Notes under the pieces: model-generated
Databases searched by the model: none
What the model saw: only the letters and a program-made list of their open reading frames with translations
What the model was told of the DNA's origin: nothing
NCBI GenBank assembly: GCA_045612485.1
Contig: JAZKZE010000109.1
Span: 1,483 to 65,482 of the forward strand
Length of the DNA stretch: 64,000 nt
From: Victivallales bacterium
Lineage (GTDB): Bacteria; Verrucomicrobiota; Lentisphaeria; Victivallales; UBA1829
Direction: 5' to 3'
In this document: positions 1-16,011 of the stretch, one piece after another
Layout: each line of letters opens with the position of its first letter
Position numbering within the stretch: position 1 is the stretch's first letter
Program-made: the position numbers and the translations under genes

Positions 1-131
1 ATACCATAATACAATGACAAAAGTTCCCGGTTGGAATTAAGTGCCGCCCGTTGCTGACTTTCAAGAATAGCTTGCTTTAATACAGAAACAGCTTCCTTGA
101 CACCATGAAAATCTAAACTGTTTTCACTCAT
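1..131 (-). CDS. DUF1016/YhcG-like PD-(D/E)XK nuclease family protein, 5' end only (gene continues beyond left edge)
   Basis: Not in the ORF track because it runs off the window. Reverse translation from the ATG at 131 gives MSENSLDFHGVKEAVSVLKQAILESQQRAALNSNRELLSLYYG. This resembles the conserved N-terminal pattern of YhcG/DUF1016 proteins (..AALAVNRELIxLYWxIG). Its start overlaps the hsdM stop as ATGA (128-131). Confidence 0.5.
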   Translation of the reverse strand, partial: MSENSLDFHGVKEAVSVLKQAILESQQRAALNSNRELLSLYYG

Positions 132-1624: not shown

Positions 1625-1979
1625 AAAATCCTCTTTTTCTAAAAATATTAAAACATCCCGTAATGTACCATAAACCATTAATTTTTCAAGAGGATTCTGC
1701 AATTATGAAAAATATTTTTTAGACATTTACATTTGATTACAAAATAACTGTATCTTAATATAGAAAGTGAATATATACTCAGCTATGGCACAAAAAGTAA
1801 CCCCGGGGTTACTCTTTTGAGCGGTACAATCCCACTCCTATCTAAAAAAAAGCCGGAAGGAAGGCTTGTACTCCTTCAACTTCCGGGATGCAATTATTTT
1901 GAGTATGGGGGCATCACGTCCATACATTCCTTACAGAATCATACTGTAAGGGTTCGCAGAGATTCTGCTCCTGGCGGGG

Positions 1980-2708: not shown

Positions 2709-2710
2709 AT

Positions 2711-3484
2711 TTACCTCCATTTCTTGCAGCGGTCTGCATAGGGACACTCATTGCAAGTAAAGTTCGTTTCATTGGGATAGAAGTTGCCGCTATTCACGCT
2801 TCGTTCGATCTGATTTGCCAGAGAAACAAACCTATCAAGCTCATCATTTGTGCGTAAAGTATAGTAGTTATTGACAGTTGGCGACTTTGCCTTTGTTATG
2901 ACATCAAAACGGAAAAGCGGATTTTCACCAAACTTTTCTCTGTAAGCATAACAAAATACAGTAGCCTGCAAATCCTTATCCGCTTTATCAATGGGCCACT
3001 TTGCAGATGCCGTTTTCCAGTCAACAATACAGTTATCGTGACCATCTGTCACCACGCAATCAAACTCACCAATAAGAGGTTTACTCAATCCGGGGACAGT
3101 AACAGAAAACCCTTCGGCAACTTTCTGAACCGCATAATCATCTGCCCAGTTTTCACAGGCTTTTTCCAGCATCCTGATCCCCGTTTCAAGCAAAGAATCG
3201 TAACTCTCATTCTGCTTATAGATCAGGTTTGCCACAACCTCCGTTTCCACCTTGAAAAAGTCCTCAAAAACATCCACAACCTCACGGACAGACATATCTT
3301 TTCCGATCCTTGCCCGTTCAGAAAGTGCCGCGTGAATAGCACGTCCAAAGGGAAAACAGGAAGAGGTGCGTTCCGGCTCAACCTTATCAATATAGCGGAA
3401 CTGATATTTCAAAGGACAACCCAGAAAACACTGAAACGCCGAATAGGACCAGTGGGGCAGCTCTTTCAAATTTACAATATTCAT
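2711..3484 (-). CDS. PD-(D/E)XK exonuclease, Cas4/RecB-like, with Cys cluster
   Basis: N-terminal motif FLGCPLKYQFRYI. Nuclease core GEFDCVV...IVDWKTA (D...D/ExK). C-terminal CNECPYADRC fits a Cas4-type Fe-S Cys arrangement. Confidence 0.7.
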   Translation of the reverse strand: MNIVNLKELPHWSYSAFQCFLGCPLKYQFRYIDKVEPERTSSCFPFGRAIHAALSERARIGKDMSVREVVDVFEDFFKVETEVVANLIYKQNESYDSLLETGIRMLEKACENWADDYAVQKVAEGFSVTVPGLSKPLIGEFDCVVTDGHDNCIVDWKTASAKWPIDKADKDLQATVFCYAYREKFGENPLFRFDVITKAKSPTVNNYYTLRTNDELDRFVSLANQIERSVNSGNFYPNETNFTCNECPYADRCKKWR

Positions 3485-3897
3485 GCTGCCCTCCAGGAGT
3501 TAATGAGGTTGGAACACTGACTTTTGGTCAACTGTTCTACACTTGCAACACCATGCTGTGCGGCAATTTGTGCTGGCGATATTCCTTTGTTTCTTGCAAG
3601 ATCAAGCATAAATTTGATCTGTTTGGGAGATGCAGGAATTCCATTATTTGCCTGTGGGTGTTGATTAGTCTGAACTTGTGCTGTTGGCGTATTATTCTGC
3701 ACAGGCACACTTTTTCCATGCAGTTCTGCCTCAACAGAATTACGTACCATTTCAAAGGTGGCATGGATGCGGTTCTGTAATTCATTCTGGCTCAATCCAT
3801 CAGGCAATTCAACCTCAATAGAAGCGTGATAGGACTGACTTGTAAATTCCCCATCAGCGGGGACTTTTTTGCTGTAAGAAGCGTTTAATTTAAGCAT
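3481..3897 (-). CDS. hypothetical protein (MGE-associated)
   Basis: ORF 3481..3933. Start placed at ATG 3897 (MLKLNASY), with AAGGAA upstream. Its stop overlaps the downstream nuclease start as ATGA (3481-3484). No recognisable catalytic motif. Confidence 0.5.
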   Translation of the reverse strand: MLKLNASYSKKVPADGEFTSQSYHASIEVELPDGLSQNELQNRIHATFEMVRNSVEAELHGKSVPVQNNTPTAQVQTNQHPQANNGIPASPKQIKFMLDLARNKGISPAQIAAQHGVASVEQLTKSQCSNLINSWRAA

Positions 3898-3965
3898 TTT
3901 ATTTTCCTTTCTCTTGATTTTTGTAAATTTCACGTTATATTTTGTGTAAACACAGGAGCAGATTC

Positions 3966-4154
3966 ATGGATCATCGAATAGAAAAATTCAAACTATGGTT
4001 GAAAAATCCGCCGGTAATGAAATTTCCGGTTCCTGTAAATTTGCCTGCGTTTTCCAAAAAGTCATTTCGCAATTATGAAGAAATGAACAAATGGAAACAG
4101 GAATATCTCAAAGAAATTGCTGCACAAGGCGGTATTAAATGGAAGAAATCCTGA
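3966..4154 (+). CDS. small hypothetical protein (62 aa) upstream of the BrnA-like antitoxin
   Basis: ATG at 3966 with AGGAG 9 nt upstream. Stops 10 nt before the next gene. No family recognised, and it does not resemble BrnT/DUF497. Confidence 0.45.
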   Translation: MDHRIEKFKLWLKNPPVMKFPVPVNLPAFSKKSFRNYEEMNKWKQEYLKEIAAQGGIKWKKS

Positions 4155-4163
4155 AAAAATAAT

Positions 4164-4391
4164 ATGCGAAAGGCTGTGCGTAAAGAGTATGATTTCAGTA
4201 AGGCTGTGAAGAATCCGTATATCCGCAAAAAGGCAAAAACTCCTGTCACGATCCGACTGGGTGCAACAACGGTGGATTACTTCAAATCTCTTTCGGAAGA
4301 GGCAAATCTGCCGTATCAGACACTTATCAATTCCTACTTAACGGATTGCGCAAAGCGTAAACTGAAACCGCAGATTGCCTGGAATGAATGA
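4164..4391 (+). CDS. BrnA/CopG-like antitoxin family protein
   Basis: The 75-aa protein MRKAVRKEYDFSKAVKNPYIRKK..VTIRLGATTVDYFKSLSEEANLPYQTLINSYL matches the BrnA_antitoxin pattern (eYDFSka..npY, itIRLd.dvl.wFk, gYQTliN). Confidence 0.65.
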   Translation: MRKAVRKEYDFSKAVKNPYIRKKAKTPVTIRLGATTVDYFKSLSEEANLPYQTLINSYLTDCAKRKLKPQIAWNE

Positions 4392-4396
4392 TTTTG

Positions 4397-5764
4397 TTAA
4401 ATCGCCATTCTGATCCGTTCGATGGCACGCTTGGCAAGGATGAAATCGCGCTCTTTCTGCTTCTGCGTCAGAGCTACTTCCTTAACCTTGCGGCTCAATG
4501 CGTTTGATTCTTCAAACATGGCTTTCAATTTACTGCGCAATGCTTCAATACTTGCAGAAAGTTCTTCCAGAGGATTGTTTTCCTGCGCAGCTTCACCATT
4601 GTTAATGCTTGTGGTGCTGATGGTTGCAATTTTACTTTCGTTAGACATTGTTTCATTCTCCTTTTCGTTGTTTTGTGTTGTTTGAGTAGTATTTTCTGTC
4701 TGTTTTTGAGTTGTCTGAAGTAAGGGCATGGCTATAAATTGCCCCAGACCTCCTGTCGCAATAAAAGGACTGTGGCAAACTGCGGCACATTCCAGTTTGG
4801 TATGCCCCTGTGAGAGCAGATGCATCAGGATTTCTTTACTTACTGCCATTGCAAAAACATTCTTTTCAACGGCAAATTCAGCAGGAAATTCTTTCTTCTG
4901 CTCCTTATGTTTCAGAATAAGAGTACATTTATCCTTCATTTCCAGATCAATAGTTGTGTGAGGCTTTTCATCCGGGATGGTTTTCAGAAAAGCAATCATT
5001 TCTTTGCCTTGCTGTTCACTGAAAGTAACAGTGTTGGGAAGATTCTTGCTGTCAGGAATGATCGTTTTCCAGTCAGGGTATTTGCCCTGAATCCCCTTGC
5101 CGCACCAACGCCATGCACCGGTAACGATCTCAAAAAAAGTTTCCTCTTTTTCTTTCCATGTGATCAAATGCCCCTGTGCCTCGCTCTTTGTTGCAAGAAG
5201 CGGTAAAGGAAATGGCAAAATCAATTCATCCATATTGAGCGGAAGAGGAGTATTCAAGAGTTCCCTGCCGTTGGTCACAGTAATTCCATCTCTGCTCAAC
5301 TGGACTCCCTGCAACACCTTTCTATACTCATTTCTATTGATGACAGGTACTGCTGTTGCAAGCAGTTCCACAAAAGATGAGGGCAGTGTGAGAAAATGTT
5401 TTTTGCTTTCTTCTGCTGTGGGGGCGGCAGGAAAATCGCACTTTACTGGTGTAAGAAGTTTGCCATCTATAAGCATGAAATTTTTATCGGTCTCAAATAT
5501 GAGATCCTTATTTCTGCTGCCCTTGACAGCTATTCTCAATGCTTCAAAATCAGCAATACAAGTAAAGGCTTCTGTGAAGGAACTTTCCATTGTAAAGAAA
5601 AGATGCTCCACTCCATTTGTAGTTTCAAATACTAATTTCCCGTTTTTGCCTTTTATGCGGATAGATTTATTTGCTTCCACAGGCGAGGTTCTTGTTACAA
5701 GTTTCCCCAGAGCAGCAAGAGCTCCGGCAAGTTCATTTTTTACGATTTCAAATTTCATTTTCAA
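4397..5764 (-). CDS. DnaN-like sliding clamp (DNA polymerase III beta subunit homolog) with ~95-aa C-terminal Q/T/N-rich and coiled-coil extension
   Basis: The body is collinear with bacterial beta clamps: MKFEIVKNELAGAL..., YRKVLQGVQLSRDGITVTNGRELL (compare RYYLNGM...ATDGHRLA), GKYPDWKTIIP (compare GRFPDYRRVLP), and FIAMPLL near the end of the clamp body. Extra tail QTTQKQTENTTQ...LRSKLKAMFEESNALSRKVKE. Start overlaps the upstream gene as ATGA. Confidence 0.7.
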   Translation of the reverse strand: MKMKFEIVKNELAGALAALGKLVTRTSPVEANKSIRIKGKNGKLVFETTNGVEHLFFTMESSFTEAFTCIADFEALRIAVKGSRNKDLIFETDKNFMLIDGKLLTPVKCDFPAAPTAEESKKHFLTLPSSFVELLATAVPVINRNEYRKVLQGVQLSRDGITVTNGRELLNTPLPLNMDELILPFPLPLLATKSEAQGHLITWKEKEETFFEIVTGAWRWCGKGIQGKYPDWKTIIPDSKNLPNTVTFSEQQGKEMIAFLKTIPDEKPHTTIDLEMKDKCTLILKHKEQKKEFPAEFAVEKNVFAMAVSKEILMHLLSQGHTKLECAAVCHSPFIATGGLGQFIAMPLLQTTQKQTENTTQTTQNNEKENETMSNESKIATISTTSINNGEAAQENNPLEELSASIEALRSKLKAMFEESNALSRKVKEVALTQKQKERDFILAKRAIERIRMAI

Positions 5765-6126
5765 TCCTTTCTTATGAGGCTGTAAACCTCTATCATTTTT
5801 GGTGTTAAGTAGATGAGTGATGCGATAAAAGCAATAAGCACAAAGCCCAATGAAGCCATCTTCAAAGGACTCATTACACTTGCTGTTGCTTTGGAAAAGG
5901 CTTTCGGATCTTTTTCGGCAATGGTATTCAAACTTTCCTCAATACCGTTACTGATCTTGTAGGCAGTTATGATCGTTCCTGCGGCTGCTCCCCCTGCTGC
6001 TATGTGCTGCCAGGTGACTACCGGCGGACGGTGAATGGTTTTATGCGGGACTCTGTGACTTCTTCCATAACAAGCTGTAACAGCAAGAAATACAAGAAGA
6101 AACAATATATATTTAGTATTACTCAT
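5761..6126 (-). CDS. small membrane protein (2 predicted TM segments)
   Basis: ORF 5761..6363 trimmed to ATG 6126 (MSNTKYILFLLVFLAVTA). This start overlaps the upstream stop as ATGA (6123-6126). Hydrophobic N- and C-terminal segments. Confidence 0.5.
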   Translation of the reverse strand: MSNTKYILFLLVFLAVTACYGRSHRVPHKTIHRPPVVTWQHIAAGGAAAGTIITAYKISNGIEESLNTIAEKDPKAFSKATASVMSPLKMASLGFVLIAFIASLIYLTPKMIEVYSLIRKD

Positions 6127-6875
6127 TGCATATATACCTTTCTGCAAGATTCCCTGCAAGATGTAATGATTTGATAAAGTGCCTGTGTAAGAGTTTGGGG
6201 CATTTGCTTGTAGCATTTTATGAGATCTCCTATACACATAGCCGTCCCTCCTGCCGCCATTCCCACCGCAATAATATCCCCCACAGGAAGAGGTCCATCC
6301 GCCAACGCAGCCGCCGTACTTGCTGCTGCCGTTCCTGCTAATTTTGTACTTACTGAAGCACAAATCCTTCCTGCCGCTGAAAGAGTGCTTTTCAGCATAA
6401 CTGCCTCCATTCCAAGGCCTCCAATAGAGAAAACGGAGATAGTTGCATGACCTCCTACTGCCTCCATCATGTAATTAGTAAATTGTGGACTATCTACATT
6501 TACTCCATAGATTTTAGAGGCTTTTCTGCACTCATCAGTAACAGATCTGATATGCCATGCCATAAAGGCTTGCGCTGTTTTCTTGCCGGTAACTTTATCG
6601 TAGGTAAATTTACAGCACAATTTCAGCACATTTTTAGGACTGCAAAAAGTTTTGACAATATGGGGGACATATTCTCTTGCCTTCCGGAAATGTGTTTCTG
6701 CTTTTCTGTCCAGTTCTTTCAAACGGGCCAGCTTTGAATTGTAAAGTTTTTCCTGGTTCCTCTTTTCCAGAGTTTTAAGCATTTTGTAGCCGATGCCGCC
6801 AATAGCCAATACTCCTGCAAGTAAGGCAAAAAAGATGGTTCTGGATAATGTTTTTGTTTTTCTTCTTACGTTCAT
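6123..6875 (-). CDS. membrane-anchored hypothetical protein (250 aa)
   Basis: AAGGAG lies upstream of ATG 6875. N-terminal TM segment IFFALLAGVLAIGGIGY, and a Gly/Ala-rich hydrophobic C-terminal half. First gene of a three-gene coupled set ending in the clamp homolog. Confidence 0.55.
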   Translation of the reverse strand: MNVRRKTKTLSRTIFFALLAGVLAIGGIGYKMLKTLEKRNQEKLYNSKLARLKELDRKAETHFRKAREYVPHIVKTFCSPKNVLKLCCKFTYDKVTGKKTAQAFMAWHIRSVTDECRKASKIYGVNVDSPQFTNYMMEAVGGHATISVFSIGGLGMEAVMLKSTLSAAGRICASVSTKLAGTAAASTAAALADGPLPVGDIIAVGMAAGGTAMCIGDLIKCYKQMPQTLTQALYQIITSCRESCRKVYMQ

Positions 6876-7239
6876 TTTTGAACTCCTTTTTTGTTTGTTT
6901 TTTTAGTTTCAGGTGTAAAATCCTGTCATCTTATTATGCCAGAAAAAGGAGGATTTTTTAGAAAAAAATTGGGCGTGATAGAATATTTTGAACTTTTAAT
7001 AGTGGCTATTTACAATAAACCCGAATTCTGACAGAATTTCTGCTCAATTACAGCAACTTGCTGTACCTGTTTTTCGCACAATGCAAAGTAGGTCTTATGC
7101 AACAATCTGACGTATAAAACATTATATATTGATATTTAATGAGCTTACGCCCCACTCTATACTTACCCATTTTATTTTTCCTGAACAAGACATACCATTT
7201 TCCTGCAGAAGTAATATATTATTTTTACTTGAAATTCAC

Positions 7240-7267
7240 TTGCAAAACCCTGAACAAATGCTATATT
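7240..7267 (+). promoter_or_regulatory. candidate sigma70-type promoter for the defence operon
   Basis: TTGCAA (7240-7245), a 16-nt spacer, then TATATT (7262-7267), about 108 nt upstream of ATG 7375. Weak, motif-only call. Confidence 0.3.
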
Positions 7268-7374
7268 TACCGTACAGATACAAAATCTTTGAAAATTGAA
7301 ATCGGCAAAGCAAAAAAAAACGTCCCATCTAGCAGTCGAAAAAATTCAGGTTGTTGTAAAGAGAAAGAATAATA

Positions 7375-10260
7375 ATGTTTTATAAGCTCATTCAACAAAA
7401 ACGCGATCAATGGCTGGCAACAAAAGATTGTCCAGTACGTGAATTGCTGTCTTATATCATCGGCAAAGCAAAGTTGCGAGATGCTCAAACTGAAGCAATC
7501 AAGACTTATCTTTTTCTGAAAATTGCTTGTCAATGCCGTTCTTTGTATGAGCTCTTTGTGAATGGATACTTCAACTCTGCAATCAACTGGGATAATCTTG
7601 AACTGACTGCAACTGCACGTGAATGTTTGCGGAATAATCCAGCTGCAGCGGCTCTGTACGAATATGCCTCTATGCCTAATGCTGATGGCAAAGTGTTCTC
7701 GCCTAAAGTTCTCAGTAAAATCAAATCTGCTCCCAACGCAATTGATTATAAAGCGTTTTTCAAAAATGCTTTTTACGATGTCTCTTATTCCGACTACCTT
7801 TTCAGTTTACCAATGGGCGCAGGCAAGACTTATTTAATGGCAGCGTTCATTTATCTGGACTTGTATTTTGCCGAGAATGAACCTGATAATCCGGCGTTTG
7901 CTCATAACTTTATCATTCTTGCGCCATCTGGCTTAAAGTCTTCAGTCATTCCGAGTTTGCGTACAATTCAAAACTTTGATCCGGCATGGGTGATTCCGGA
8001 GCCTGCTGCAAGTAATTTGAAACGCAAGCTGATATTTGAGGTGCTTGATCAGAATAAGAGTGCAAACAAGTCCAACAAGACTAAGAATCCGAATGTTCAG
8101 AAGATTGCCATTCATCAGCCATTGCAAGAATTGTTCGGCTTGGTTGCGGTCACTAATGCTGAAAAAGTTATCCTTGACCGGGTTGATCTGGATGAAAAAA
8201 CTGGACAATTGCAGTTGATTGAAAAGACTGATGATGACAAAGACTGTCAGGCTAACGAGTTACGCAACCTCATTGGCAAACTGCCACACCTTTCTGTTTT
8301 CATTGATGAAGTTCATCATGCTGCGACTGATGATAAGAAGCTCCGTGCCGTAGTCAATAATTGGATGGTAAATCACACGCTGAACAGTGTAATCGGTTTT
8401 TCCGGAACACCATACTTGGCAAAGACTGAAAAGATTGCTGTAGCAGAAGGTTTAACCGTTGCATCCATAGAAATCTCCAATATTGTTTACTATTATCCAC
8501 TGGTGAATGGCATTGGCAACTTTCTGAAAATGCCAACGGTGAAAATTGTCAAAGATCTCTCGCGAATGCAGATTGTTGAACAAGGTATCCGGGATTTCTT
8601 TGCCAGCTACAAAGACACAGTCTATCCTGACGGGACTTGTGCCAAACTGGGAATTTACTGTGGTCTTATTGAAACACTGGAAACAGAAATTTATCCGTTA
8701 GCAGTAAAACTTGCAGAAGAGTACGGATTTAATACATCGGAAGTAATTCTGCGTTACCACGGAGGCAATAAGATTTATCCTAAACCGGTAGACAGCGATC
8801 TTGAGTTTGCCAGTTTGGATAAGTCTTTCTCAAAGATCCGCATTGTACTGCTTGCACAAATCGGTAAAGAGGGATGGGATTGCCGCAGTTTGACCGGAAT
8901 CATTCTTTCACAAGAGGGTGATTGCCCCACCAATATGGTGTTACAAACTTCTTGTCGTTGTCTTCGTCAGGTTGCAAAAAATGTTACGGAAACTGCATTG
9001 ATTTGCTTGAATGACAGCAATGCAGAAGCTCTTAATAAACAATTGGAACAGCAACAGCACATTTCGATATCAGAGTTTGAGCGCGGTTCATCGGCACAAC
9101 AGACTGAATTAAAGCGGTTTGATCGCACAAAGCATTTATCATTGCCGCCAGTCAAATTCTATCAGTTGCGGGTACAACATCAGGAATTGGTCATTGATGA
9201 AAAACGGGATACCGTGCAGGAGTTGTCTGTATCTGTCGATAATACCGAACACTACGGTTCGATGAATACGGCAGAGATGAAAGACCACTTGCAAAACACC
9301 GGTATTGCAACTCAACTTACCGGTACTGATAAAATCATCGCCAATTACAACGCCTGGCTCTACAATATTGCCAAAGGCGGTTTCGGTTTGATTGCAGATT
9401 CTATGAAGTTGCTTCAACCGTATGATGCCGTATTGAAAGAGTTGTTTGCCAAGATCACCATTTCTGAAGATGGCGTAACTTATTTCAATCCGGCGTACCG
9501 TCTCGACTTGATCAACGCCAATATCCGAAAAGCCTTTTATGCCAAGCGCACTTTCAAAAGCAGTGAAGAGTTGATACCGGAAGATGCCAGACTTCTGAAA
9601 GTTGAAAACTTCACCTCAACCATACCGACTGCAACTCCGGAAAACTTTTATCCTGATCAATCAACCGTGCAGCGTATTGTCGATGCAGATGAGGGGAAAG
9701 GTTTGTCTGAAGAACAGCAAAAAACAATTGAAATGCTGGAAAGTATCGGACAGAAAGCTATGGCAGACAAGTTGCGCAATGAAATTGATGTGCCTCCTCA
9801 CAAAGACCAATCATATCACTATCTGCCATATCGCACTGACAGCAGCTTTGAACAGCTCTTTTTGCAGGAAGTTCTGTTGCTTGATTGCGTCAATGCGTTG
9901 AATTTGGAAGTTTATTATAACGGCGACCGGGCATTGACAGAATTCAAGATACGTTGTTATAAAAAGACGGGTTCCTATTGGAAATACATTGGGATGTATA
10001 CACCGGACTTTCTCATCATTCAACGCAAAGATGGAGCGATCCATCGGGCGATCATTGTTGAGACCAAGGGGGTGATTTATGCCCATGACCCGACCTTTAA
10101 AGATAAGAAAGCATTTGTTGAGAGCACATTCCTGCAGAAAAACAATGAGACTTTCAAGTACGCCCGCTTTGAGTACCTTTATTTGGAAGATTCTGAATCA
10201 GAGCAAGAACGGATAAATAAAACTGCAACTGCGATTAAAGATTTCTTTGAGGAGCTGTGA
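7375..10260 (+). CDS. Type III restriction Res-like SF2 helicase fused to a C-terminal PD-(D/E)XK nuclease
   Basis: Helicase motifs: SLPMGAGKT (I), VFIDEVHHA (II, DEVH), GFSGTPY (III), GKEGWDCRSL, QTSCRCLRQ (VI). C-terminal nuclease core YTPDFLII...AIIVETKG. The length (961 aa) and architecture match Res subunits. Confidence 0.85.
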   Translation: MFYKLIQQKRDQWLATKDCPVRELLSYIIGKAKLRDAQTEAIKTYLFLKIACQCRSLYELFVNGYFNSAINWDNLELTATARECLRNNPAAAALYEYASMPNADGKVFSPKVLSKIKSAPNAIDYKAFFKNAFYDVSYSDYLFSLPMGAGKTYLMAAFIYLDLYFAENEPDNPAFAHNFIILAPSGLKSSVIPSLRTIQNFDPAWVIPEPAASNLKRKLIFEVLDQNKSANKSNKTKNPNVQKIAIHQPLQELFGLVAVTNAEKVILDRVDLDEKTGQLQLIEKTDDDKDCQANELRNLIGKLPHLSVFIDEVHHAATDDKKLRAVVNNWMVNHTLNSVIGFSGTPYLAKTEKIAVAEGLTVASIEISNIVYYYPLVNGIGNFLKMPTVKIVKDLSRMQIVEQGIRDFFASYKDTVYPDGTCAKLGIYCGLIETLETEIYPLAVKLAEEYGFNTSEVILRYHGGNKIYPKPVDSDLEFASLDKSFSKIRIVLLAQIGKEGWDCRSLTGIILSQEGDCPTNMVLQTSCRCLRQVAKNVTETALICLNDSNAEALNKQLEQQQHISISEFERGSSAQQTELKRFDRTKHLSLPPVKFYQLRVQHQELVIDEKRDTVQELSVSVDNTEHYGSMNTAEMKDHLQNTGIATQLTGTDKIIANYNAWLYNIAKGGFGLIADSMKLLQPYDAVLKELFAKITISEDGVTYFNPAYRLDLINANIRKAFYAKRTFKSSEELIPEDARLLKVENFTSTIPTATPENFYPDQSTVQRIVDADEGKGLSEEQQKTIEMLESIGQKAMADKLRNEIDVPPHKDQSYHYLPYRTDSSFEQLFLQEVLLLDCVNALNLEVYYNGDRALTEFKIRCYKKTGSYWKYIGMYTPDFLIIQRKDGAIHRAIIVETKGVIYAHDPTFKDKKAFVESTFLQKNNETFKYARFEYLYLEDSESEQERINKTATAIKDFFEEL

Positions 10261-10261
10261 G

Positions 10262-11107
10262 ATGAATTATCTTGATTACCGAGAAGCTTTAGGGATTTGT
10301 TTTAATGATAAAGGAAAACAAAAGTTATTTATAAACAGAATGCAAGTATACCTTCAATCTCATCCCACGAGTATATTCAATGATGAACAAGAAATCGGTT
10401 TTTGTTATGCAATAGGGGCAATTTGTGAATTAAATAATGATCCATATGCACTTGCCGATTTACAATTGCACAAGCCAAAAGGTTTTCAACGGGTTTGGCT
10501 TTATCTTGCTGAAAAACAAAATAACTTTAAAGATTTTCTCGCAGCACTCATTGTTTTTGCAAATAGTTATTCAGGGAATGCAACCACAAAAAAGAGTGTT
10601 ATTGCCGTTATAAAAAGGGGATTAAAAGATAGTAATATCCAATTTGACATTTTTAAAGATAAAGATGATATATTTATCTTTCCGAAAGGTGCGAAAGAAC
10701 TTGATGACAAACTTGTAACTGAACCATTGCAATGGCTGACTGAATATCCAAATGCAAGAATAGCTTGGAATAATGCACTAAAAGCCTATGCTGATGCCAC
10801 TGATGAAAATGCCAGTGACTGTGCCGATTTATTCCGAAAAGCTCTTGAACAATTTTTCAGAGAATTTTTCGGCGGTAAAAAGTCATTGGAAAATTACAGA
10901 TCCGGATACGGAAACTTTATGGAAAATTATGGTATTCCCGCTGAACTGAGCAATTCTTTTGAAAAGGTTTTGAATCAATATACCACTTATATGAATAATT
11001 ATGCCAAACACGGAAACGGTACTTCAAAAATCGCTTTGGAATACATAATGTACCAGACGGGCAGTTTAATACGATTTTTAATTACGCTGAAGCAAGAGGA
11101 GAAATGA
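10262..11107 (+). CDS. hypothetical protein (281 aa), no recognisable family, between res-like and mod-like genes
   Basis: ATG at 10262, 1 nt after the helicase stop (10258-10260). Its stop overlaps the MTase start as ATGA (11104-11107). The C-terminal half looks helical (IAWNNALKAYADATDENASDCADLFRKALEQFFREFF). No Rx4-6H, Walker or nuclease motif seen. Confidence 0.7.
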   Translation: MNYLDYREALGICFNDKGKQKLFINRMQVYLQSHPTSIFNDEQEIGFCYAIGAICELNNDPYALADLQLHKPKGFQRVWLYLAEKQNNFKDFLAALIVFANSYSGNATTKKSVIAVIKRGLKDSNIQFDIFKDKDDIFIFPKGAKELDDKLVTEPLQWLTEYPNARIAWNNALKAYADATDENASDCADLFRKALEQFFREFFGGKKSLENYRSGYGNFMENYGIPAELSNSFEKVLNQYTTYMNNYAKHGNGTSKIALEYIMYQTGSLIRFLITLKQEEK

Positions 11108-12984
11108 TTATGCCGATCAAATATATACCGTTCTTTCCGGAGCCGATCGAAGGTCAGGCTTTGTTGGATAATTTCAAACGTACGCTGCGCTACAAAGGGG
11201 CGTATGATGTCACTGATAAATTGAAACGCGGTATGCCGCTGTATGAAATGGAAAAACAGGAAACCATCGGTACCAATCCTGACGGTAATATGGTTATCAG
11301 GGGCGAATGTGTTTCTGCCTGTGCTTATTTGAAAGAACAGGGTATAACCGTTGACCTTGTTTACATTGACCCGCCCTTTGCCAGCGGAGCTGACTATGCC
11401 AAAAAGATTTATATCCGCCGTAACCCGAAAGTGGCAGAAGCCATTGCCAAAGCAGAGGAAGAGTTGGAAGATAAAGACTTCAAAGAATTTGAAGAAGTAA
11501 TGTACGGCGATGTTTGGGATAAAGAAAAATATCTCAACTGGATGTATGAAAACCTTTGCGCCATCAAGTCAGTTATGAGTGAAACTGCCAGTATTTATGT
11601 TCATTTGGATTGGCATATTGGGCATTATGTAAAAATCTTGATGGATGAAATCTTTGGAGAGGAGAATTTCATCAATGAGATAATTTGGCATTTCGCAGAC
11701 AACTTTCAAGGAAATGTCAAAGGTTTTGCGACAAATCACAACACTATATTTTGGTATTGCAAAAATAATAATACTTATAACCACAATAAGGTGATGATTC
11801 CGCTGGATACCCCCACGAAAAGAGATAAGCGCATATGGGACAGTAAACTTAATAAACTCGTATCTGCAAGAGATGAAAATGGCAATTTGATATACGAAAC
11901 ATTTACAGAAAAAAAAGCAGATGATGTCTGGGAAATCGGACAAACTTCTGTAACAAAAGAACACAGTTCAGAATTTGTTGGTTATGCGACACAAAAGCCG
12001 GAAGAATTATTAAGAAGAGTAATTGAGGCTAGTTCCAGTGAAAATATGTTGATTGCCGACTTTTTCGGCGGCAGTGGTGTTGCTGCTGCAGTTGCAAATA
12101 AGTTAGGGCGGCGTTTTATTCATTGTGACATTGGCATCAATTCTATCCAAACGACCCGCGACCGACTGCTGGCAGACAAGGCTGAATTTGATGTATTGGA
12201 AATCAAAGACGGCGTTTCTCTCTACCGTAATCCGCAGCAAACTATGGATAAAATCAAATCTTTGATTCCCGGTCTGCGTAACGAAGATTCTCTGGATTCA
12301 TTCTGGGAAGGGGCGATTTTTGACAGCAAACTTGGCATGGTTCCCGTATATGTGCCGAATTTGATGGACAGCAGCACCAAATTGCTGGATGTAGTGTTGA
12401 TAAACCGCATTATCAATGTGGCAATTCCCGATCTTGACAATACCGTAAAAAAAGTCATTGTTTACTATGTGGATATTTCTGATCCGGAAGAAATCCGAAA
12501 CTTTATCAAAAATGACACCACGACCGATAAAGAAATTGAGTTGCGTGATCTGAAAGAGGTTCTGGACGATGTTGTAGCCGAAGATTATGCCGAATTTTCC
12601 TGTAAGCAAATACAGGATGGATTATTTACCGGATACTGTATTGAAATCAATAAATTTTCCAGCGACCGGGTTTATGACAAAATCCATACCTATAACGATA
12701 AAGGAAAATTCAATATCAATGGGAAGAAAACATTTACGCCAATCACCATCAGTGATACAGGTTTGGAACTCATTGAATTTCTCTCCGTTGACTGTACCGC
12801 AACTGATGGCATTTGGCATTCTGACAGCGAAATCAAGATAGATAAACTCGGCTACGTCATCCGCAACGGCATAAAGACCAAAGATTTCTGGGACGCTACA
12901 ATCACCAGCGATAAACAGCCACTCCGTCTGAAAATTCGCAACATCTGCGGCGATGAAACCGTGTTGAAAGTAGCAAAGGAATGA
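11104..12984 (+). CDS. Site-specific DNA methyltransferase, beta-class N6A/N4C (type III Mod-like), with ~270-aa C-terminal extension
   Basis: Motif IV is DLVYIDPPFASGADY (aa ~85-99). The motif LDWHIGHYVKILMDEIFGEENFINEIIW is typical of the N-4/N-6 methylase family. Motif I is ADFFGGSGVAAAVA (aa ~319). The order IV-TRD-I indicates beta class. Confidence 0.9.
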   Translation: MIMPIKYIPFFPEPIEGQALLDNFKRTLRYKGAYDVTDKLKRGMPLYEMEKQETIGTNPDGNMVIRGECVSACAYLKEQGITVDLVYIDPPFASGADYAKKIYIRRNPKVAEAIAKAEEELEDKDFKEFEEVMYGDVWDKEKYLNWMYENLCAIKSVMSETASIYVHLDWHIGHYVKILMDEIFGEENFINEIIWHFADNFQGNVKGFATNHNTIFWYCKNNNTYNHNKVMIPLDTPTKRDKRIWDSKLNKLVSARDENGNLIYETFTEKKADDVWEIGQTSVTKEHSSEFVGYATQKPEELLRRVIEASSSENMLIADFFGGSGVAAAVANKLGRRFIHCDIGINSIQTTRDRLLADKAEFDVLEIKDGVSLYRNPQQTMDKIKSLIPGLRNEDSLDSFWEGAIFDSKLGMVPVYVPNLMDSSTKLLDVVLINRIINVAIPDLDNTVKKVIVYYVDISDPEEIRNFIKNDTTTDKEIELRDLKEVLDDVVAEDYAEFSCKQIQDGLFTGYCIEINKFSSDRVYDKIHTYNDKGKFNINGKKTFTPITISDTGLELIEFLSVDCTATDGIWHSDSEIKIDKLGYVIRNGIKTKDFWDATITSDKQPLRLKIRNICGDETVLKVAKE

Positions 12985-12987
12985 GTA

Positions 12988-13737
12988 ATGACAAAAATAA
13001 AAGATAAAATAAAAGATTGTTTCCAACAGGCAAACCTGATTGCAGCAGGCTTGAATAACAAGAATATCGATCAAAATATGGTAGCAAAGCTTCTTCGACT
13101 AATTCGAGAACTTTACTGTCTATTACCTGCCTCTATGGTAGAAACTAAAAATGCTTTGAAAACTTGGGACAAGAATTTTTCTCAACTAAATTATATCCAG
13201 CTGCCGTATTGCTTAGGACATATACAAGGTTGCCTTCAAGTTCTACTTGATTACCCAATTGATATTCCCTCAAAAAAGATTTTCATCAGTCACTCCTCTA
13301 ATGACAAAGATATTGTAGATGCATTTGTAACCTTATTATGTATGGGAGGGGGTTTTTCTCCGAATGATATTTTTTGTACATCTTTTATCGGAGGAAAAGT
13401 AAAAAATGGAGAAGATCTGCGAGAGCATATACAAAGCAATGTAAATTTTACTGATTTTGCCATCCTCTTAATTTCTCCAAATTATAAACAGAGTGCGGTT
13501 TGTCTTAATGAAATGGGGGCTGTTTGGGCTATCAATAAAAAAGTCAAAACATATGTTTTACCAGGACTTCAAGAATCTGAAGTTGGTTGGCTTATTGATA
13601 CTAAAGCGGCAGAGAAAATCAACGATATGACAGCCCTTGCCTCTCTTTACGACGAATTTGCTAAATTTTATAAACTTTCAGGCAATACAGAATTATGGAC
13701 AGCACAAGCAATGAAGTTTTGTAATATATTTAATTAA
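12988..13737 (+). CDS. TIR-domain protein (ThsB-like) with ~97-aa N-terminal helical region
   Basis: ATG lies 3 nt after the MTase stop. TIR signature KKIFISHSSNDKDIVDAFVTLL, and a conserved Glu context in AVCLNEMGAVWAINK. Confidence 0.85.
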   Translation: MTKIKDKIKDCFQQANLIAAGLNNKNIDQNMVAKLLRLIRELYCLLPASMVETKNALKTWDKNFSQLNYIQLPYCLGHIQGCLQVLLDYPIDIPSKKIFISHSSNDKDIVDAFVTLLCMGGGFSPNDIFCTSFIGGKVKNGEDLREHIQSNVNFTDFAILLISPNYKQSAVCLNEMGAVWAINKKVKTYVLPGLQESEVGWLIDTKAAEKINDMTALASLYDEFAKFYKLSGNTELWTAQAMKFCNIFN

Positions 13738-13769
13738 GACGCAATTGCGATAAATATTGGAGATAACAA

Positions 13770-14075
13770 ATGGATAAAGCTGATATTTTGTTGCATATAG
13801 AAAACATAAAAAAACAACTGAGTTTAGGGCAAGCCTCTCTAATGGTCGGTGCGGGTTTTTCTCTCAATGCTGATCGTAAAAATTCCGCAACACCATTACC
13901 TCCTGATTGGAATAAACTTTCGGATGAATTCATCAAGGAATTATATGATACATTCCCTGATGAATACCAAAAACGAATGCGCCAGTCAAAAAATGTATTA
14001 CAACTGGCCCAGGAATATGATTCAACTTTCTTACGTAGCAAGTTATACAGAGGACATCAAAACAAAGTGGCTTGA
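13770..14075 (+). pseudogene. SIR2-family (ThsA-like) N-terminal fragment; remainder missing or frameshifted up to ~14407
   Basis: The 101-aa ORF contains ASLMVGAGFSLNADRKNSATPLPPDWNKLSDEFIKEL...LQLAQEYDSTF. This parallels the SIR2_2/ThsA N-terminus (..FaGAGlS...sW..L....LAqyy). No TTNYD or later SIR2 motif follows. Downstream sequence to 14407 is split over two other frames, with one shift at an A8 run (14213-14221). Confidence 0.5.
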
Positions 14076-14319
14076 TTTAATGTTTTCTATATTTCGCTGG
14101 AGTAGAGAAAATAATAATGTCAGTAAACAGAAACAATATTATGATTTATTAAAAAAAATAGCTGATGAAAAAGATAATTCTATTCAGGATAGGTTACATT
14201 TTGATGATAAAAGAAAAAAAATTTGATTCAACTCTCAATAAAGAGTTTGTTACCGCAATCACTTCCCCAGATGCTAAGCTATTGAGCAATTACGAACAAG
14301 CAATTTATAATGCGTATTA

Positions 14320-15390
14320 TTATGCAAAAAGAGAAATAATACCAGCTGTTCCGAAAAAAGTCACGGATTTATTAGTGTATTCTTCCATAATAATATCATC
14401 TATATAAAGTTGGCAGATCTCATTCAACCGCATCCCCTGATAGAGGGCAATCAAATTCACCCAGTAACGCATAGGATAGAGTTTAGGCATGAAACGGGGA
14501 CGGTTGGGAAGATCGCCGATCATGCGGAATATGGAGGAAAGCTCCTGCACAGTAAAAGGAGGACGCAACTCTCTTACATCACAGAATTCCGAACGGTCAG
14601 ACAAACCCGCAGCTGGATTTTTCACCATAAAGTCCGCCTGTACCGACCAATTAAAAAAGCCGTTCCAGAACTCCATATATCTTTCAATGGTGGTATCAGA
14701 AATGTAGTCTTTTACATTTTTCAGTTTCAGGACTTCCGGTAAAGGCACACCAGGATAAAGTTTCTTTCTGTTTTTAGGGTACTTTTTCAGAAGATTACAC
14801 CGTACATCTATCATTACAGCTCTATTGAGTTTCCCTATATCAAAATCCCCTCCCAGATACTCCATCAGCAAAGAAAGGGCATTGCTTCTGTCCTTTTCTG
14901 TTTTTGGATTCATGCTGCTCTTTTCCTCTTTCTCCCTTAAATATAAAGAACAACATTCCTGCAGCTTGTGATAAGGATGAGGTGTTTTGGCTGTTTCTAT
15001 ATGCTTTTCCGGCAGATTTTGAGGAAGTTGGAGTTCTATATTGAGGGTACGGAAGATTTGCGTTAGAAAGCACTGCAGAAGGTCACTGTGTTGAGGTGAC
15101 ATCTGCCGTATTTCCTGTATTTGCGGCAAAGGGGTGGTTCGATAGAGTTCTTCATTACAGATCTCATTGACCAATTCTTTGAGTATCGTTTTATTTACCA
15201 TCCCTTTTATGGCTCGCCGGAAGAGATGTTTTAATCGTATGGAACAAGCAAGACACCGGGATTCTATTTCCGGTATATCAAAAGTCAATTCCTTTGTTAT
15301 ATATTTAGGTAGATGCTCCCATAATGCTTTCGGTGTCTTCATCCAAAATCGAATTCTTTTTCCATTCTTGTGGCAATAAGTTTTACCCAT
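14320..15390 (-). CDS. Tyrosine recombinase/phage-type integrase, apparently C-terminally truncated (catalytic His/Arg/Tyr region absent)
   Basis: The N-terminus MGKTYCHKNGKRIRFWMKTPKAL and the core-binding region are typical of tRNA-associated integrases. The catalytic domain begins (PMRYWVNLIALYQGMRLNEICQLYIDDI, box I Arg), but the ORF stops about 25 aa later. Lies adjacent to tRNA-Tyr. Confidence 0.75.
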   Translation of the reverse strand: MGKTYCHKNGKRIRFWMKTPKALWEHLPKYITKELTFDIPEIESRCLACSIRLKHLFRRAIKGMVNKTILKELVNEICNEELYRTTPLPQIQEIRQMSPQHSDLLQCFLTQIFRTLNIELQLPQNLPEKHIETAKTPHPYHKLQECCSLYLREKEEKSSMNPKTEKDRSNALSLLMEYLGGDFDIGKLNRAVMIDVRCNLLKKYPKNRKKLYPGVPLPEVLKLKNVKDYISDTTIERYMEFWNGFFNWSVQADFMVKNPAAGLSDRSEFCDVRELRPPFTVQELSSIFRMIGDLPNRPRFMPKLYPMRYWVNLIALYQGMRLNEICQLYIDDIIMEEYTNKSVTFFGTAGIISLFA

Positions 15391-15418
15391 ACATTCCTTT
15401 CAGAGGAGAGGAGAGAAA

Positions 15419-15466
15419 GTAAACCAGAAAGTAAACCGAAAAGTAAACCGAAAAGTAAACCATCTT
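15419..15466. repeat. 4 x 12-bp direct tandem repeat (AGTAAACCGAAA-like) just upstream of the integrase start
   Basis: Units are agtaaaccagaa / agtaaaccgaaa / agtaaaccgaaa / agtaaaccatct, read directly from the sequence. They lie 29 bp upstream of the int ATG (15390) on the minus strand. Confidence 0.8.
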
Positions 15467-15540
15467 CCCCCACACCCTTTTTCGGCAACATCTGCAACAA
15501 GCACCGGCAAAAGGTATAATGAGCGTAACGGCAGGAGTTT

Positions 15541-15569
15541 AAAACAAAAAAGCCGTCGTAATGACGGCT
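15541..15569 (-). terminator. Rho-independent terminator downstream of the tRNA pair
   Basis: Minus strand reads AGCCGTC-attac-GACGGCT followed by TTTTTTGTTTT. Confidence 0.7.
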
Positions 15570-15581
15570 GACAGATCAAAA

Positions 15582-15666
15582 TGGTGGTGGGGAGTGGATT
15601 CGAACCACTGAAGTCAGGGACGGTAGATTTACAGTCTACTGCATTTGGCCACTCTGCAACCCCACC
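15582..15666 (-). tRNA. tRNA-Tyr (anticodon GTA), encoded CCA, long variable arm
   Basis: Reverse complement: GGTGGGGTTGCAGAGTGGCCAAATGCAGTAGACTGTAAATCTACCGTCCCTGACTTCAGTGGTTCGAATCCACTCCCCACCACCA. Acceptor stem GGTGGGG/CCCCACC, anticodon stem GTAGA/TCTAC with loop CTGTAAA, T-arm GGTTCGAATCC. Confidence 0.95.
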
Positions 15667-15676
15667 AACTTTCAAA

Positions 15677-15750
<74 letters not shown>

Positions 15751-16011
15751 ATCTCAACTTGATGTCATTTAATATACTCTCTTTCAGTCAAAAGTCAAGC
15801 CGTTTTTTGATTTTTTTTCAAAATTCTTTTATTTTCACGGAAAAACTTGTTTTTATTAACCCAAAAGAGGGTATTTCAGGCGGAAAATGGTAAAACATGG
15901 TGGCGGGATGAAGATAGATGTGTACTGAAGAATACGGAAAAGTATGGTGGGAATGTATATGATTGTAGTGAATGATCCGGAAGAAAAATAGAGAAAATGA
16001 AAATCCAATTA

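What the first reader, a model, noticed from the sequence alone, without database searches (positions are those of the whole stretch)
12988..14407. TIR gene followed by a decayed SIR2 (ThsA-like) gene: remnant of a Thoeris-type pair next to the R-M module
The ORF at 13770-14075 reproduces the N-terminal ~95 aa of SIR2_2/ThsA-type proteins (ASLMVGAGFS...LPPDWNKL...LAQEYDSTF) and then terminates. The following ~330 bp are split over two other frames, and no TTNYD-type motif is visible. One frame change coincides with an A8 run at 14213-14221.

Established: Thoeris consists of ThsA (SIR2 or other effector) plus TIR ThsB.

Inference: either the TIR protein is an orphaned ThsB whose effector has decayed, or it has been re-used by the upstream Res/Mod operon. 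These two readings make different predictions about whether the TIR is still functional.
Basis: partly seen in the sequence, partly recalled or inferred. Interest (0 to 1): 0.55.

Follow-up and report, generated by a model that had tools for sequence, protein, structure and literature searches.

The report
Intact SpbK-like TIR, wrecked DSR2 gene
An intact stand-alone TIR anti-phage gene of the SpbK type sits at the end of a Type III restriction-modification operon, next to the deletion-riddled remains of a different one-gene anti-phage system (DSR2), so this is an ordinary defence island with one dead cassette and not a broken Thoeris pair.

Summary
The sequence features are real, but the Thoeris reading is not supported.

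**TIR gene (12988-13737).** It is intact. Its best matches are SpbK (PADLOC 6e-32; PDB 9phb 1.8e-19), not ThsB (3.5e-5). It keeps the N-E-G-W active-site motif, and its model shows a four-helix N-terminal domain plus a TIR domain. It evolves under purifying selection (omega about 0.1).

**101-aa ORF.** It is the first 92 residues of a DSR2-type sirtuin (about 1240 aa), not of ThsA.

**The following 330 bp.** These are two further collinear pieces of the same gene, matching aa 416-466 and 1071-1131 of the closest full-length relative.
- Two internal deletions of about 1 kb and 1.8 kb removed the whole catalytic SIR2_2 domain and most of the sensor.
- A third deletion fused the remnant tail-to-tail to an integrase cut at codon 337 (junction at 14380).

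**No conserved pairing.**
- Close relatives of the TIR gene share DNA with the window only within the TIR ORF and have other neighbours.
- Among 76 loci of relatives, only one has a DSR2-like gene directly downstream.
- The nearest relative of the DSR2 stub has a different upstream gene.
- DSR2 and SpbK each work as single-gene systems.

**Side observation.** This TIR family often directly follows restriction-modification methylase or specificity genes.

Verdict: a new member of known kinds, of low to moderate interest.

The parts
7375..10260 (+). Type III restriction subunit (Res), first gene of the tightly packed operon
   Evidence: Pfam ResIII 3.3e-6 and weak RE_endonuc; 961-aa ORF
10247..11107 (+). 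Gene embedded between Res and Mod. It resembles PADLOC phage-defence candidate PDC-S32. An ATG at 10262 lies 1 nt after the Res stop.
   Evidence: PADLOC PDC-S32 1.6e-26; no Pfam family
11104..12984 (+). Type III modification methyltransferase (Mod). Its start overlaps the stop of the previous gene (ATGA).
   Evidence: Pfam N6_N4_Mtase 1.4e-40; PADLOC MTase_III 3.3e-48
12988..13737 (+). Intact SpbK-like TIR protein (249 aa). Residues 1-94 are a predicted four-helix domain and 95-249 are the TIR domain, with motif C-L-N174-E175-M-G177-A-V-W180. The gene starts 3 nt after the Mod stop, with an AAGGA 7 nt upstream.
   Evidence: PADLOC spbK 6e-32; PDB SpbK 9phb 1.8e-19; AF2 model pLDDT 78 with four N-terminal helices; Foldseek top hit SpbK; 41 invariant columns in 19 relatives; omega 0.08-0.13
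13770..14045 (+). DSR2 pseudogene, piece A, matching residues 1-92 of full-length relatives (the Gly-rich GAGFS stretch lies here). The ORF runs out of homology and stops at 14075.
   Evidence: tblastn against P0123: 60% identity, E 8e-36; Dsr2 profiles; 209 library hits, most of them 1150-1300 aa and aligned 1-92 to 1-92
14050..14205 (+). DSR2 pseudogene, piece B, in another frame, matching residues 416-466 of P0123. Residues 93-415, including the whole SIR2_2 catalytic domain, are deleted between A and B.
   Evidence: tblastn 52% identity, E 3e-14; SIR2_2 at aa 122-255 in P0123
14201..14383 (+). DSR2 pseudogene, piece C, in the third frame, matching residues 1071-1131 of P0123. About 600 residues are deleted between B and C, with the junction at the A-rich run 14206-14221. 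The last ~110 residues are lost.
   Evidence: tblastn 38% identity, E 6e-12, reproduced with P0124, P0125, P0127, P0130, P0132 and the L091 protein
14380..15390 (-). Tyrosine integrase remnant (codons 1-337 of about 509). The catalytic domain is lost after box I (GMRLNEICQLYIDDI). It is fused tail-to-tail to the DSR2 remnant.
   Evidence: Relatives are 507-518 aa with PF00589; P0273 is 93% identical. L093 is 94.4% identical in DNA over window 15835-14380 and diverges exactly at 14380.
15416..15462 (.). 12-nt tandem repeat (3.9 copies) between the integrase start and tRNA-Tyr
   Evidence: Tandem Repeats Finder
15582..15750 (-). tRNA-Tyr and tRNA-Gly genes flanking the island on the integrase side
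   Evidence: ARAGORN; Rfam tRNA

Best explanation
The region is the tRNA-proximal end of a horizontally acquired defence island. It holds two unrelated single-gene NAD-depleting abortive-infection cassettes stacked behind a Type III restriction-modification operon (Res, a PDC-S32-like gene, Mod).

**First cassette: TIR gene, 12988-13737.** It is an intact SpbK-family protein. By analogy with Bacillus subtilis SpbK, its N-terminal four-helix domain would bind an oligomeric phage structural protein made during infection. That binding would cluster the TIR domains into head-to-tail assemblies and create active sites around Glu175, which cleave NAD+ and abort the infection. It needs no partner gene. 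It is probably co-transcribed and translationally coupled with Mod.

[quoted passage not shown] Three deletions left only about 16% of the gene, as three collinear pieces in three frames. The catalytic Asn/His region is gone. The last deletion also removed the catalytic half of the neighbouring island integrase.

**Shown:** homologies, piece map, junctions, conservation, selection and variability of neighbours.

**Inferred:** NADase activity, trigger type, autonomy of the TIR protein, and co-transcription.
For: **TIR**
- PADLOC spbK 6e-32 against best ThsB 3.5e-5.
- PDB SpbK 9phb 1.8e-19, with KKIFISHSS and CLNEMGA-W aligned.
- SpbK mutants N191R, E192A, G194R and W197A are listed in PMC12847820, and its architecture is a four-helix domain at 1-94 plus a TIR domain at 113-266.
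- The AF2 model shows four N-terminal helices plus TIR. The Foldseek top hit is SpbK.
- E175 and 40 other columns are invariant in 19 relatives.
- Omega is 0.08-0.13 against relatives of about 80% DNA identity (about 76-81% protein identity).

**DSR2 remnant**
- Dsr2 profiles hit it.
- The library search gave mostly 1150-1300-aa proteins aligned at their N-terminus.
- There are three collinear pieces.
- Relatives match NCBIfam Dsr2 over positions 3-1215 of 1215.
- SIR2_2 at aa 122-255 falls inside the first deletion.
- DSR2 catalytic residues N133/H171 and the domain layout come from PMC10981675.

**Independence of the two genes**
- DNA homology is confined to each ORF.
- Downstream neighbours are variable.
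- Only L084 among the loci of TIR relatives has a DSR2-like gene directly after the TIR gene.

**Integrase junction** lies at 14380.

**Low G+C:** 34-37% against 44-49% in the flanking core genes.
Against: - No activity data exist for this protein.
- The N-terminal domain shows no detectable sequence similarity to that of SpbK. Only the predicted fold type agrees, so the trigger is unknown.
- The spbK model is matched over only its C-terminal half.
- The 3-nt spacing to Mod and the frequent position behind restriction-modification genes could mean functional coupling rather than autonomy.
- One further locus (L084) also has a SpbK-like TIR next to a DSR2-like gene.
- The contig probably comes from a metagenome assembly, so the deletions have not been verified against reads.
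- No close intact orthologue was found to define the two internal junctions at base resolution.
Confidence: 0.78

Rival explanations
1. Thoeris remnant. The TIR protein is an orphaned ThsB that once made a cyclic ADP-ribose signal for a neighbouring ThsA-type SIR2 effector, which has since decayed.
For: A TIR gene is directly followed (32 nt) on the same strand by a SIR2-family gene. Weak ThsB profile hits exist (3.5e-5). L084 has a similar TIR next to a SIR2-family gene.
Against: - The remnant is DSR2-type, and its pieces B and C align to regions of the DSR2 relatives beyond the SIR2 domain.
- Its relatives are about 1240 aa, have no Pfam domain other than SIR2_2 (no SLOG or Macro domain), and match Dsr2 end to end.
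- SpbK scores far above ThsB.
- Close TIR relatives have no SIR2 neighbour, and homology ends at the ORF borders.
- The closest stub relative has a different upstream gene.
Confidence: 0.03
2. The TIR protein is a restriction-linked backup, in the manner of PrrC with EcoprrI. It would be expressed from the Res/Mod operon, kept silent by or dependent on the restriction complex, and released to deplete NAD+ when a phage disables restriction.
For: - The TIR start lies 3 nt after the Mod stop, with a Shine-Dalgarno-like AAGGA inside the end of Mod.
- In L006 and L009 the gene overlaps the preceding specificity gene by 14 nt.
- The upstream neighbour is Methylase_S in 13 of 75 loci, plus N6_Mtase, Eco57I, Type ISP and MmeI cases. 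Methylase_S is not among the 25 downstream families listed.
- Embedding of defence genes in restriction-modification and BREX systems is documented, with PrrC as the extreme case (bioRxiv 10.1101/2024.01.29.577857).
Against: - Proteins about 76-81% identical to this one over their full length, with their sensor domains under purifying selection (omega about 0.15), follow Type III Mod, Type I/IIG specificity genes and non-restriction genes (L002). That speaks against a specific physical partner.
- Most of the 75 loci have no restriction-modification gene directly upstream.
- SpbK works alone when co-expressed with its trigger (PMC12847820).
Confidence: 0.14
3. The apparent deletions are assembly artefacts, or the 101-aa product is itself a functional short protein conserved as such.
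For: - The sequence probably derives from a metagenome assembly.
- A second short version exists (P0002, 107 aa, 83% identical).
- The shared 234 nt show omega 0.07.
Against: - The two short versions break at different residues (92 against 78) and have unrelated tails and flanks.
- Low omega is expected if both were intact until recently.
- Three collinear pieces in three frames, joined to a truncated integrase, are not what a mis-join produces.
- Nearly all strong library hits are full-length, about 1200-aa proteins.
Confidence: 0.05

Closest known systems
SpbK (YddK) of Bacillus subtilis ICEBs1, a single-gene TIR NADase abortive-infection system triggered by the SPbeta portal protein YonE
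   Same: - Same size class (249 against 266 aa).
- Same layout: a ~90-residue helical N-terminal domain followed by a C-terminal TIR domain.
- Shared KKIFISHSS and CLNEMGA-W motifs, including the residues mutated in the structural study.
- Best PADLOC, PDB-sequence and Foldseek match.
- Carried on a mobile island.
   Different: - About 32% identity in the structural alignment of the TIR domain.
- The N-terminal domain has no detectable sequence similarity, so the phage trigger is probably different.
- It sits at the end of a Type III restriction-modification operon in what is probably a Victivallales genome, not on a Firmicute conjugative element.
DSR2 (defence-associated sirtuin 2), a single-gene SIR2 NADase activated by phage tail-tube protein
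   Same: The remnant's three pieces align collinearly to the N-terminus, a middle region and a C-terminal region of DSR2-family proteins. These relatives match the NCBIfam Dsr2 model end to end.
   Different: Only about 16% of the gene survives. Catalytic Asn/His, the tetramerisation surfaces and nearly all of the sensor are deleted, so it is a pseudogene. The relatives score about 800 bits, below the 1400-bit equivalog cut-off, so they form a divergent DSR2 clade.
Thoeris (ThsB TIR signal producer plus ThsA SIR2-SLOG or Macro effector)
   Same: A TIR gene lies next to a SIR2-family gene on one strand, and both families act on NAD+.
   Different: The SIR2 gene is not ThsA-type, the TIR is SpbK-type, and the pairing is not conserved in relatives.
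Defence genes embedded in restriction-modification or BREX operons (PrrC in EcoprrI; 'guilt-by-embedding' candidates of Payne et al. 2024)
   Same: - The PDC-S32-like gene lies between Res and Mod, and the TIR gene directly after Mod.
- Relatives of the TIR often follow hsdS.
- Intact DSR2 relatives are embedded in BREX (L091) or follow Res-Mod (L092).
   Different: The study covered Hma, BREX, DISARM and Type I systems, whereas here the host operon is Type III. No evidence of functional dependence exists.

Membership tests
Thoeris | Effector ThsA: SIR2 (or other effector) fused to a signal-binding SLOG or Macro domain, about 470 aa | tested here: not met
   The remnant's pieces align to aa 1-92, 416-466 and 1071-1131 of ~1240-aa DSR2-family proteins. 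Those relatives show only SIR2_2 in Pfam and match NCBIfam Dsr2 over 3-1215 of 1215.
Thoeris | ThsB-type TIR protein | tested here: inconclusive
   A TIR domain is present. The best ThsB profile scores 3.5e-5, against spbK at 6e-32 and PDB SpbK at 1.8e-19.
Thoeris | Conserved operonic pairing of the TIR gene with the SIR2 effector gene | tested here: not met
   Among the downstream neighbours of relatives in 76 loci, SIR2_2 is not among the 25 Pfam families listed. An HMM of the DSR2 N-terminus finds only L084 among the TIR loci. DNA homology ends at the ORF borders.
SpbK | C-terminal TIR domain with the catalytic Glu in the C-L-N-E-M-G-A-x-W motif | tested here: met
   N174, E175, G177 and W180 align with SpbK N191, E192, G194 and W197. 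They are invariant in 19 relatives.
SpbK | N-terminal four-helix bundle sensor domain (SpbK residues 1-94) | tested here: inconclusive
   The AF2 model gives helices 2-23, 29-45, 51-66 and 72-88 at pLDDT about 75-90. There is no sequence similarity to the SpbK N-terminal domain, because the profile and phmmer matches start at residue 95.
SpbK | NADase activity switched on by a phage portal protein; single gene sufficient for abortive infection | not testable with these tools
   Only indirect support exists: variable gene neighbourhoods and purifying selection.
DSR2 | Sequence membership: match to Dsr2 profiles at the N-terminus and collinear matches further on | tested here: met
   PADLOC Dsr2 1.5e-17 and NCBIfam Dsr2 5e-16; three collinear tblastn pieces.
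DSR2 | Intact SIR2 catalytic core (Asn133/His171 equivalents) plus middle and C-terminal sensor domains, about 1000-1300 aa | tested here: not met
   Residues 93-415, 467-1070 and 1132 to the end are absent. SIR2_2 maps to aa 122-255 of the relatives. The gene is therefore filed as a DSR2 pseudogene, not a functional member.
Type III restriction-modification | Res helicase-nuclease subunit plus Mod N6/N4 methyltransferase in one operon | tested here: met
   ResIII 3.3e-6; N6_N4_Mtase 1.4e-40; MTase_III 3.3e-48. Enzyme activity was not tested.

The most novel reading that the evidence does not exclude
SpbK-like TIR NADases may be systematically wired to DNA-methylase-based immunity. They are placed directly after hsdS or Mod genes, sometimes with overlapping reading frames. 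They could act as a second-line suicide module that fires when a phage neutralises the restriction system, a TIR counterpart of PrrC-EcoprrI. In this island the module would have been stacked with, and outlived, a DSR2 module of the same general function.
Probability: 0.12. Interest if true: 0.6.

Novelty: new member of a known kind. Interest (0 to 1): 0.25.

Why it matters
- **Annotation.** It corrects an attractive but wrong label. Calling this locus 'degenerate Thoeris' would mislabel two independent one-gene systems.
- **How defence cassettes die.** The DSR2 copy was lost through large internal deletions rather than point mutations, and a relative was truncated independently. This fits selection against a costly or self-triggered NADase.
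- **Distribution of the SpbK family.** It adds Victivallales and Bacteroidales gut lineages to the known range of the family.
- **A testable pattern.** The family's position directly behind restriction-modification specificity and methylase genes is the one part that could lead to something new.

Tried and rejected
- **Word-indexed protein search with the 101-aa ORF.** It found only the ORF itself and one 107-aa relative. The exhaustive HMMER search was needed to reach the full-length relatives.
- **Look-up of the window's own TIR protein in the contig index.** It found nothing, so the source organism is inferred only loosely, from Victivallales best hits.
- **Search for an att-type direct repeat of the tRNA-Tyr end within 1-16000.** It gave nothing convincing, so the left border of the island is undefined.
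- **Promoter and terminator scans.** Not above shuffled expectation.
- **Rfam.** Only the two tRNAs.
- **Phage genome collection.** No DNA match.
- **Further DSR2 pieces elsewhere in the window.** None found.
- **Metagenome scan for a close intact orthologue of the DSR2 gene.** It gave only relatives of 54% and 38% identity, so the two internal junctions cannot be placed to the base.
- **PADLOC 'Aga_SIR2' and 'pAgo' hits among the downstream neighbours.** I do not count these as SIR2 neighbours, because SIR2_2 is not among the 25 Pfam families listed for the same set. I checked one member individually (L023) and it did not reproduce those hits. The cause of the hits was not resolved.
Full report
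**What is in the sequence**

Between 7375 and 13737 four same-strand genes are packed almost without spacers.
- Res lies at 7375-10260 (Pfam ResIII).
- A 286-aa gene lies at 10247-11107. It has no Pfam family but matches PADLOC candidate PDC-S32 at 1.6e-26.
- Mod lies at 11104-12984 (N6_N4_Mtase 1.4e-40, MTase_III 3.3e-48).
- A 249-aa TIR gene lies at 12988-13737 (TIR_2 8.8e-10).

The TIR start codon lies 3 nt after the Mod stop, with AAGGA 7 nt upstream. The 101-aa ORF begins 32 nt after the TIR stop (13770-14075). On the other strand a 356-aa ORF (14320-15390) is followed by tRNA-Tyr and tRNA-Gly. G+C falls to 34-37% over 12.5-14.5 kb, against 44-49% in the core genes to the right.

**The TIR protein is SpbK-like and intact**

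- PADLOC's spbK model scores 6e-32 (query 95-246 to model positions 148-303 of 308). The best ThsB model scores 3.5e-5.
- Against all PDB chains the only strong hit is SpbK (9phb, 1.8e-19, query 95-244). KKIFISHSS-DK and CLNEMGA-W align.
- The structural paper on SpbK (PMC12847820) describes an N-terminal four-helix bundle (1-94), a linker and a TIR domain (113-266). It lists mutants N191R, E192A, G194R and W197A. It shows that the phage portal YonE activates the NADase by docking the N-terminal domains and clustering the TIR domains.
- The window protein has N174, E175, G177 and W180 at those positions.
- An AlphaFold2 model built on 19 relatives (pLDDT 78) gives four helices (2-23, 29-45, 51-66, 72-88) followed by a TIR fold. 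Its best Foldseek match in the PDB is the SpbK filament (E 1.4e-4, probability 1.00).
- In the alignment of 19 relatives, 41 columns are invariant, E175 among them.
- Pairwise Nei-Gojobori estimates against relatives of about 80% DNA identity give omega 0.08-0.13. The N-terminal domain is at about 0.15 and the TIR domain at 0.05-0.11.

The gene is therefore under purifying selection. Nothing suggests an orphan in decay.

**The 101-aa ORF is the head of a DSR2 gene, not of ThsA**

- Pfam finds nothing in it.
- PADLOC Dsr2 (1.5e-17) and NCBIfam Dsr2 (5e-16) both align residues 4-93 to the first ~90 positions of ~1215-residue models.
- The exhaustive HMMER search of 1.84 billion representatives returned 209 hits. 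Most are 1150-1300 aa with query 1-92 aligned to their residues 1-92. The best is P0123 (1243 aa, 60% identity, 5e-27).
- P0123, P0124, P0125 and P0127 match NCBIfam Dsr2 over essentially the whole model (739-804 bits). That is below the strict 1400-bit equivalog cut-off, so they form a divergent DSR2 clade.
- In them the Pfam SIR2_2 domain is at aa 122-255. This explains why the fragment has no Pfam hit.

**The next 330 bp are more of the same gene**

tblastn with these relatives gives three collinear pieces.

| Piece | Window coordinates | Residues of P0123 | Identity | E-value |
|---|---|---|---|---|
| A | 13770-14045 | 1-92 | 60% | 8e-36 |
| B | 14050-14205 | 416-466 | 52% | 3e-14 |
| C | 14201-14383 | 1071-1131 | 38% | 6e-12 |

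- The three pieces lie in three different frames.
- The same pattern appears with P0124, P0125, P0127, P0130, P0132 and the L091 protein.
- It holds in a search of the whole 64-kb window, where no other pieces exist.
- About 970 bp were therefore lost between A and B. This includes the Asn/His catalytic core, N133 and H171 in B. subtilis DSR2 (PMC10981675).
- About 1.8 kb were lost between B and C, and about 340 bp at the 3' end.
It is a deletion junction, not a homopolymer slip.

**The right-hand junction is defined to the base**

- Relatives of the minus-strand ORF are 507-518-aa tyrosine integrases with PF00589. The closest (P0273) is 93% identical and 509 aa.
- Its contig L093 is 94.4% identical in DNA to window 15835-14380 and diverges exactly at 14380, after ...TATATAGATGATATT-ATGGAAGAA.
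- The integrase is therefore cut after codon 337, just past box I, and is joined tail-to-tail to DSR2 codon ~1131.
- One deletion removed both 3' ends.

**The two genes are not a pair**

- **TIR side, close relatives.** Relatives of the TIR gene with about 80% DNA identity sit in other contexts. One lies before a Fic gene (L002). One lies after an N6_Mtase/Eco57I gene and a specificity gene and before a Drt4-like reverse transcriptase (L006-8). One lies after a specificity gene and before an unknown 328-aa gene (L009-10). Their DNA similarity to the window starts 0-9 nt from the TIR ATG and ends inside or at the TIR stop.
- **TIR side, wider survey.** A scan of one genome per species found 217 relatives, and 80 loci were fetched, mostly Victivallales, Bacteroidales and Flavobacteriales. 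Of 76 immediate downstream neighbours, the commonest Pfam families are HATPase_c_4/AlbA_2 (7) and Fic (7), and SIR2_2 is not among the 25 families listed. An HMM of the DSR2 N-terminal 300 residues, run on all stop-to-stop ORFs of the 90 loci held at that point, hits only L001 and L084 strongly. A marginal hit (E 2.7e-4) lies in an ORF at the start of L043, far from the TIR gene. L084 is a Flavobacteriaceae contig where a 342-aa SpbK-like protein is followed by a DSR2-like gene split into two ORFs.
- **DSR2 side, the other stub.** The only close relative of the stub (L001; P0002, 107 aa, 83% identical) shares DNA only over 13759-14003. It has a different upstream gene and breaks at residue 78 instead of 92, with no further DSR2 similarity. 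Over the shared 234 nt, dS is 0.75 and dN is 0.053, giving omega 0.07. The two copies therefore diverged while functional and were truncated independently and recently.
- **DSR2 side, intact relatives.** One is embedded in a BREX locus (L091: BrxC, a PglX-like methylase, an Abi_alpha-like gene, then DSR2). Another lies directly after a Type III Res-Mod pair (L092).

**Mechanism**

The TIR protein most likely acts as SpbK does.
1. Its N-terminal helical domain senses an oligomeric phage protein.
2. The TIR domains cluster.
3. NAD+ is cleaved at sites built around Glu175.
4. The infection is aborted.

This rests on homology, conservation and a predicted fold. The trigger is unknown, because the N-terminal domain has no sequence similarity to that of SpbK. 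The DSR2 remnant cannot work. It lacks the catalytic core, most of the middle domain and most of the tail-tube-binding domain.

**An open point**

The family's upstream neighbour is a Type I specificity subunit in 13 of 75 loci. Further loci have N6_Mtase, Eco57I, Type ISP or MmeI genes upstream. Methylase_S is not among the 25 downstream families listed. In L006 and L009 the reading frames overlap by 14 nt.

This fits the documented habit of defence genes to be embedded in restriction-modification and BREX operons, with PrrC as the extreme case (bioRxiv 10.1101/2024.01.29.577857). It could instead reflect a functional link. Proteins about 76-81% identical to this one over their full length follow Type III, Type I/IIG and non-restriction genes, so I favour an autonomous cassette. 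I give the coupled model about 0.14.

**Verdict**

The Thoeris interpretation is not supported. The locus is a new member of two known kinds, an SpbK-family gene and a DSR2 pseudogene, in an ordinary tRNA-linked defence island.

**Caveats**

- The sequence is probably from a metagenome assembly, and the deletions have not been checked against reads.
- The organism is only tentatively Victivallales.
- All functional statements are inferences.

Noticed in passing
window 10247-11107 (+): A 286-aa gene lies between Res and Mod, with overlapping or abutting stops and starts. It has no Pfam family but matches PADLOC phage-defence candidate PDC-S32 (1.6e-26). Here an 'embedded' candidate sits inside a Type III rather than a Type I system.
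   Followed up: partly
loci L011-L090 (relatives of the TIR gene); L006 8001-8014; L009 2997-3010: The SpbK-like TIR family directly follows a Type I specificity gene in 13 of 75 loci, and other methylase genes in several more. Methylase_S is not among the 25 downstream families listed. In two contexts the reading frames overlap by 14 nt. DNA homology between contexts is confined to the ORF.
   Followed up: partly
L084 5893-10842: In a Flavobacteriaceae MAG, a 342-aa SpbK-like TIR protein is immediately followed by a DSR2-like gene split into two ORFs (338 and 959 aa). This is the only other TIR/DSR2 adjacency found.
   Followed up: partly
L001 1-763: A second, independently truncated DSR2 stub (breaks at residue 78) lies 2 nt after the end of a short ORF whose end resembles a PLD-like motif (GYWDIPG...LRMIIG). 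This may be another gene fragment. Omega between the two stubs is 0.07.
   Followed up: partly
L091 151-11794; L092 677-9362: Intact DSR2 relatives are embedded in a BREX locus (BrxC, a PglX-like methylase, an Abi_alpha/DUF2806 gene, then DSR2) and appended to a Type III Res-Mod pair. The latter has the same gene order as the window without the TIR gene.
   Followed up: partly
window 15416-15462: A 12-nt tandem repeat (AAAGTAAACCAA, 3.9 copies) lies between the integrase start codon and tRNA-Tyr. These may be recombinase arm-type sites.
   Followed up: no
window 1920-1937 and 15387-15404: An 18-nt near-identical direct repeat (CCATACATTCCTT[A/T]CAGA) occurs twice. One copy spans the integrase start codon and the other lies 13.5 kb to the left, near the end of an hsdM gene region. 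Its meaning is unknown.
   Followed up: no
window 128-3484 (-): Further mobile or defence genes lie to the left: a Type I hsdM (N6_Mtase 4.9e-65), a DUF932 protein and a PD-(D/E)XK nuclease. The island therefore probably extends beyond the Type III operon, and its left border was not found.
   Followed up: partly
L093 970-2424 vs window 15835-14380: The tRNA-Gly/tRNA-Tyr/integrase module is 94% identical in another metagenome contig. Both flanks differ from the window: the far side of the tRNAs and the island interior.
   Followed up: partly
L006 8789-11617: Downstream of a close TIR relative lies a 942-aa Drt4-like reverse transcriptase (PADLOC Drt4 2.4e-175 over residues 16-514) with a ~430-residue C-terminal extension that none of the listed reverse-transcriptase models covers.
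   Followed up: no
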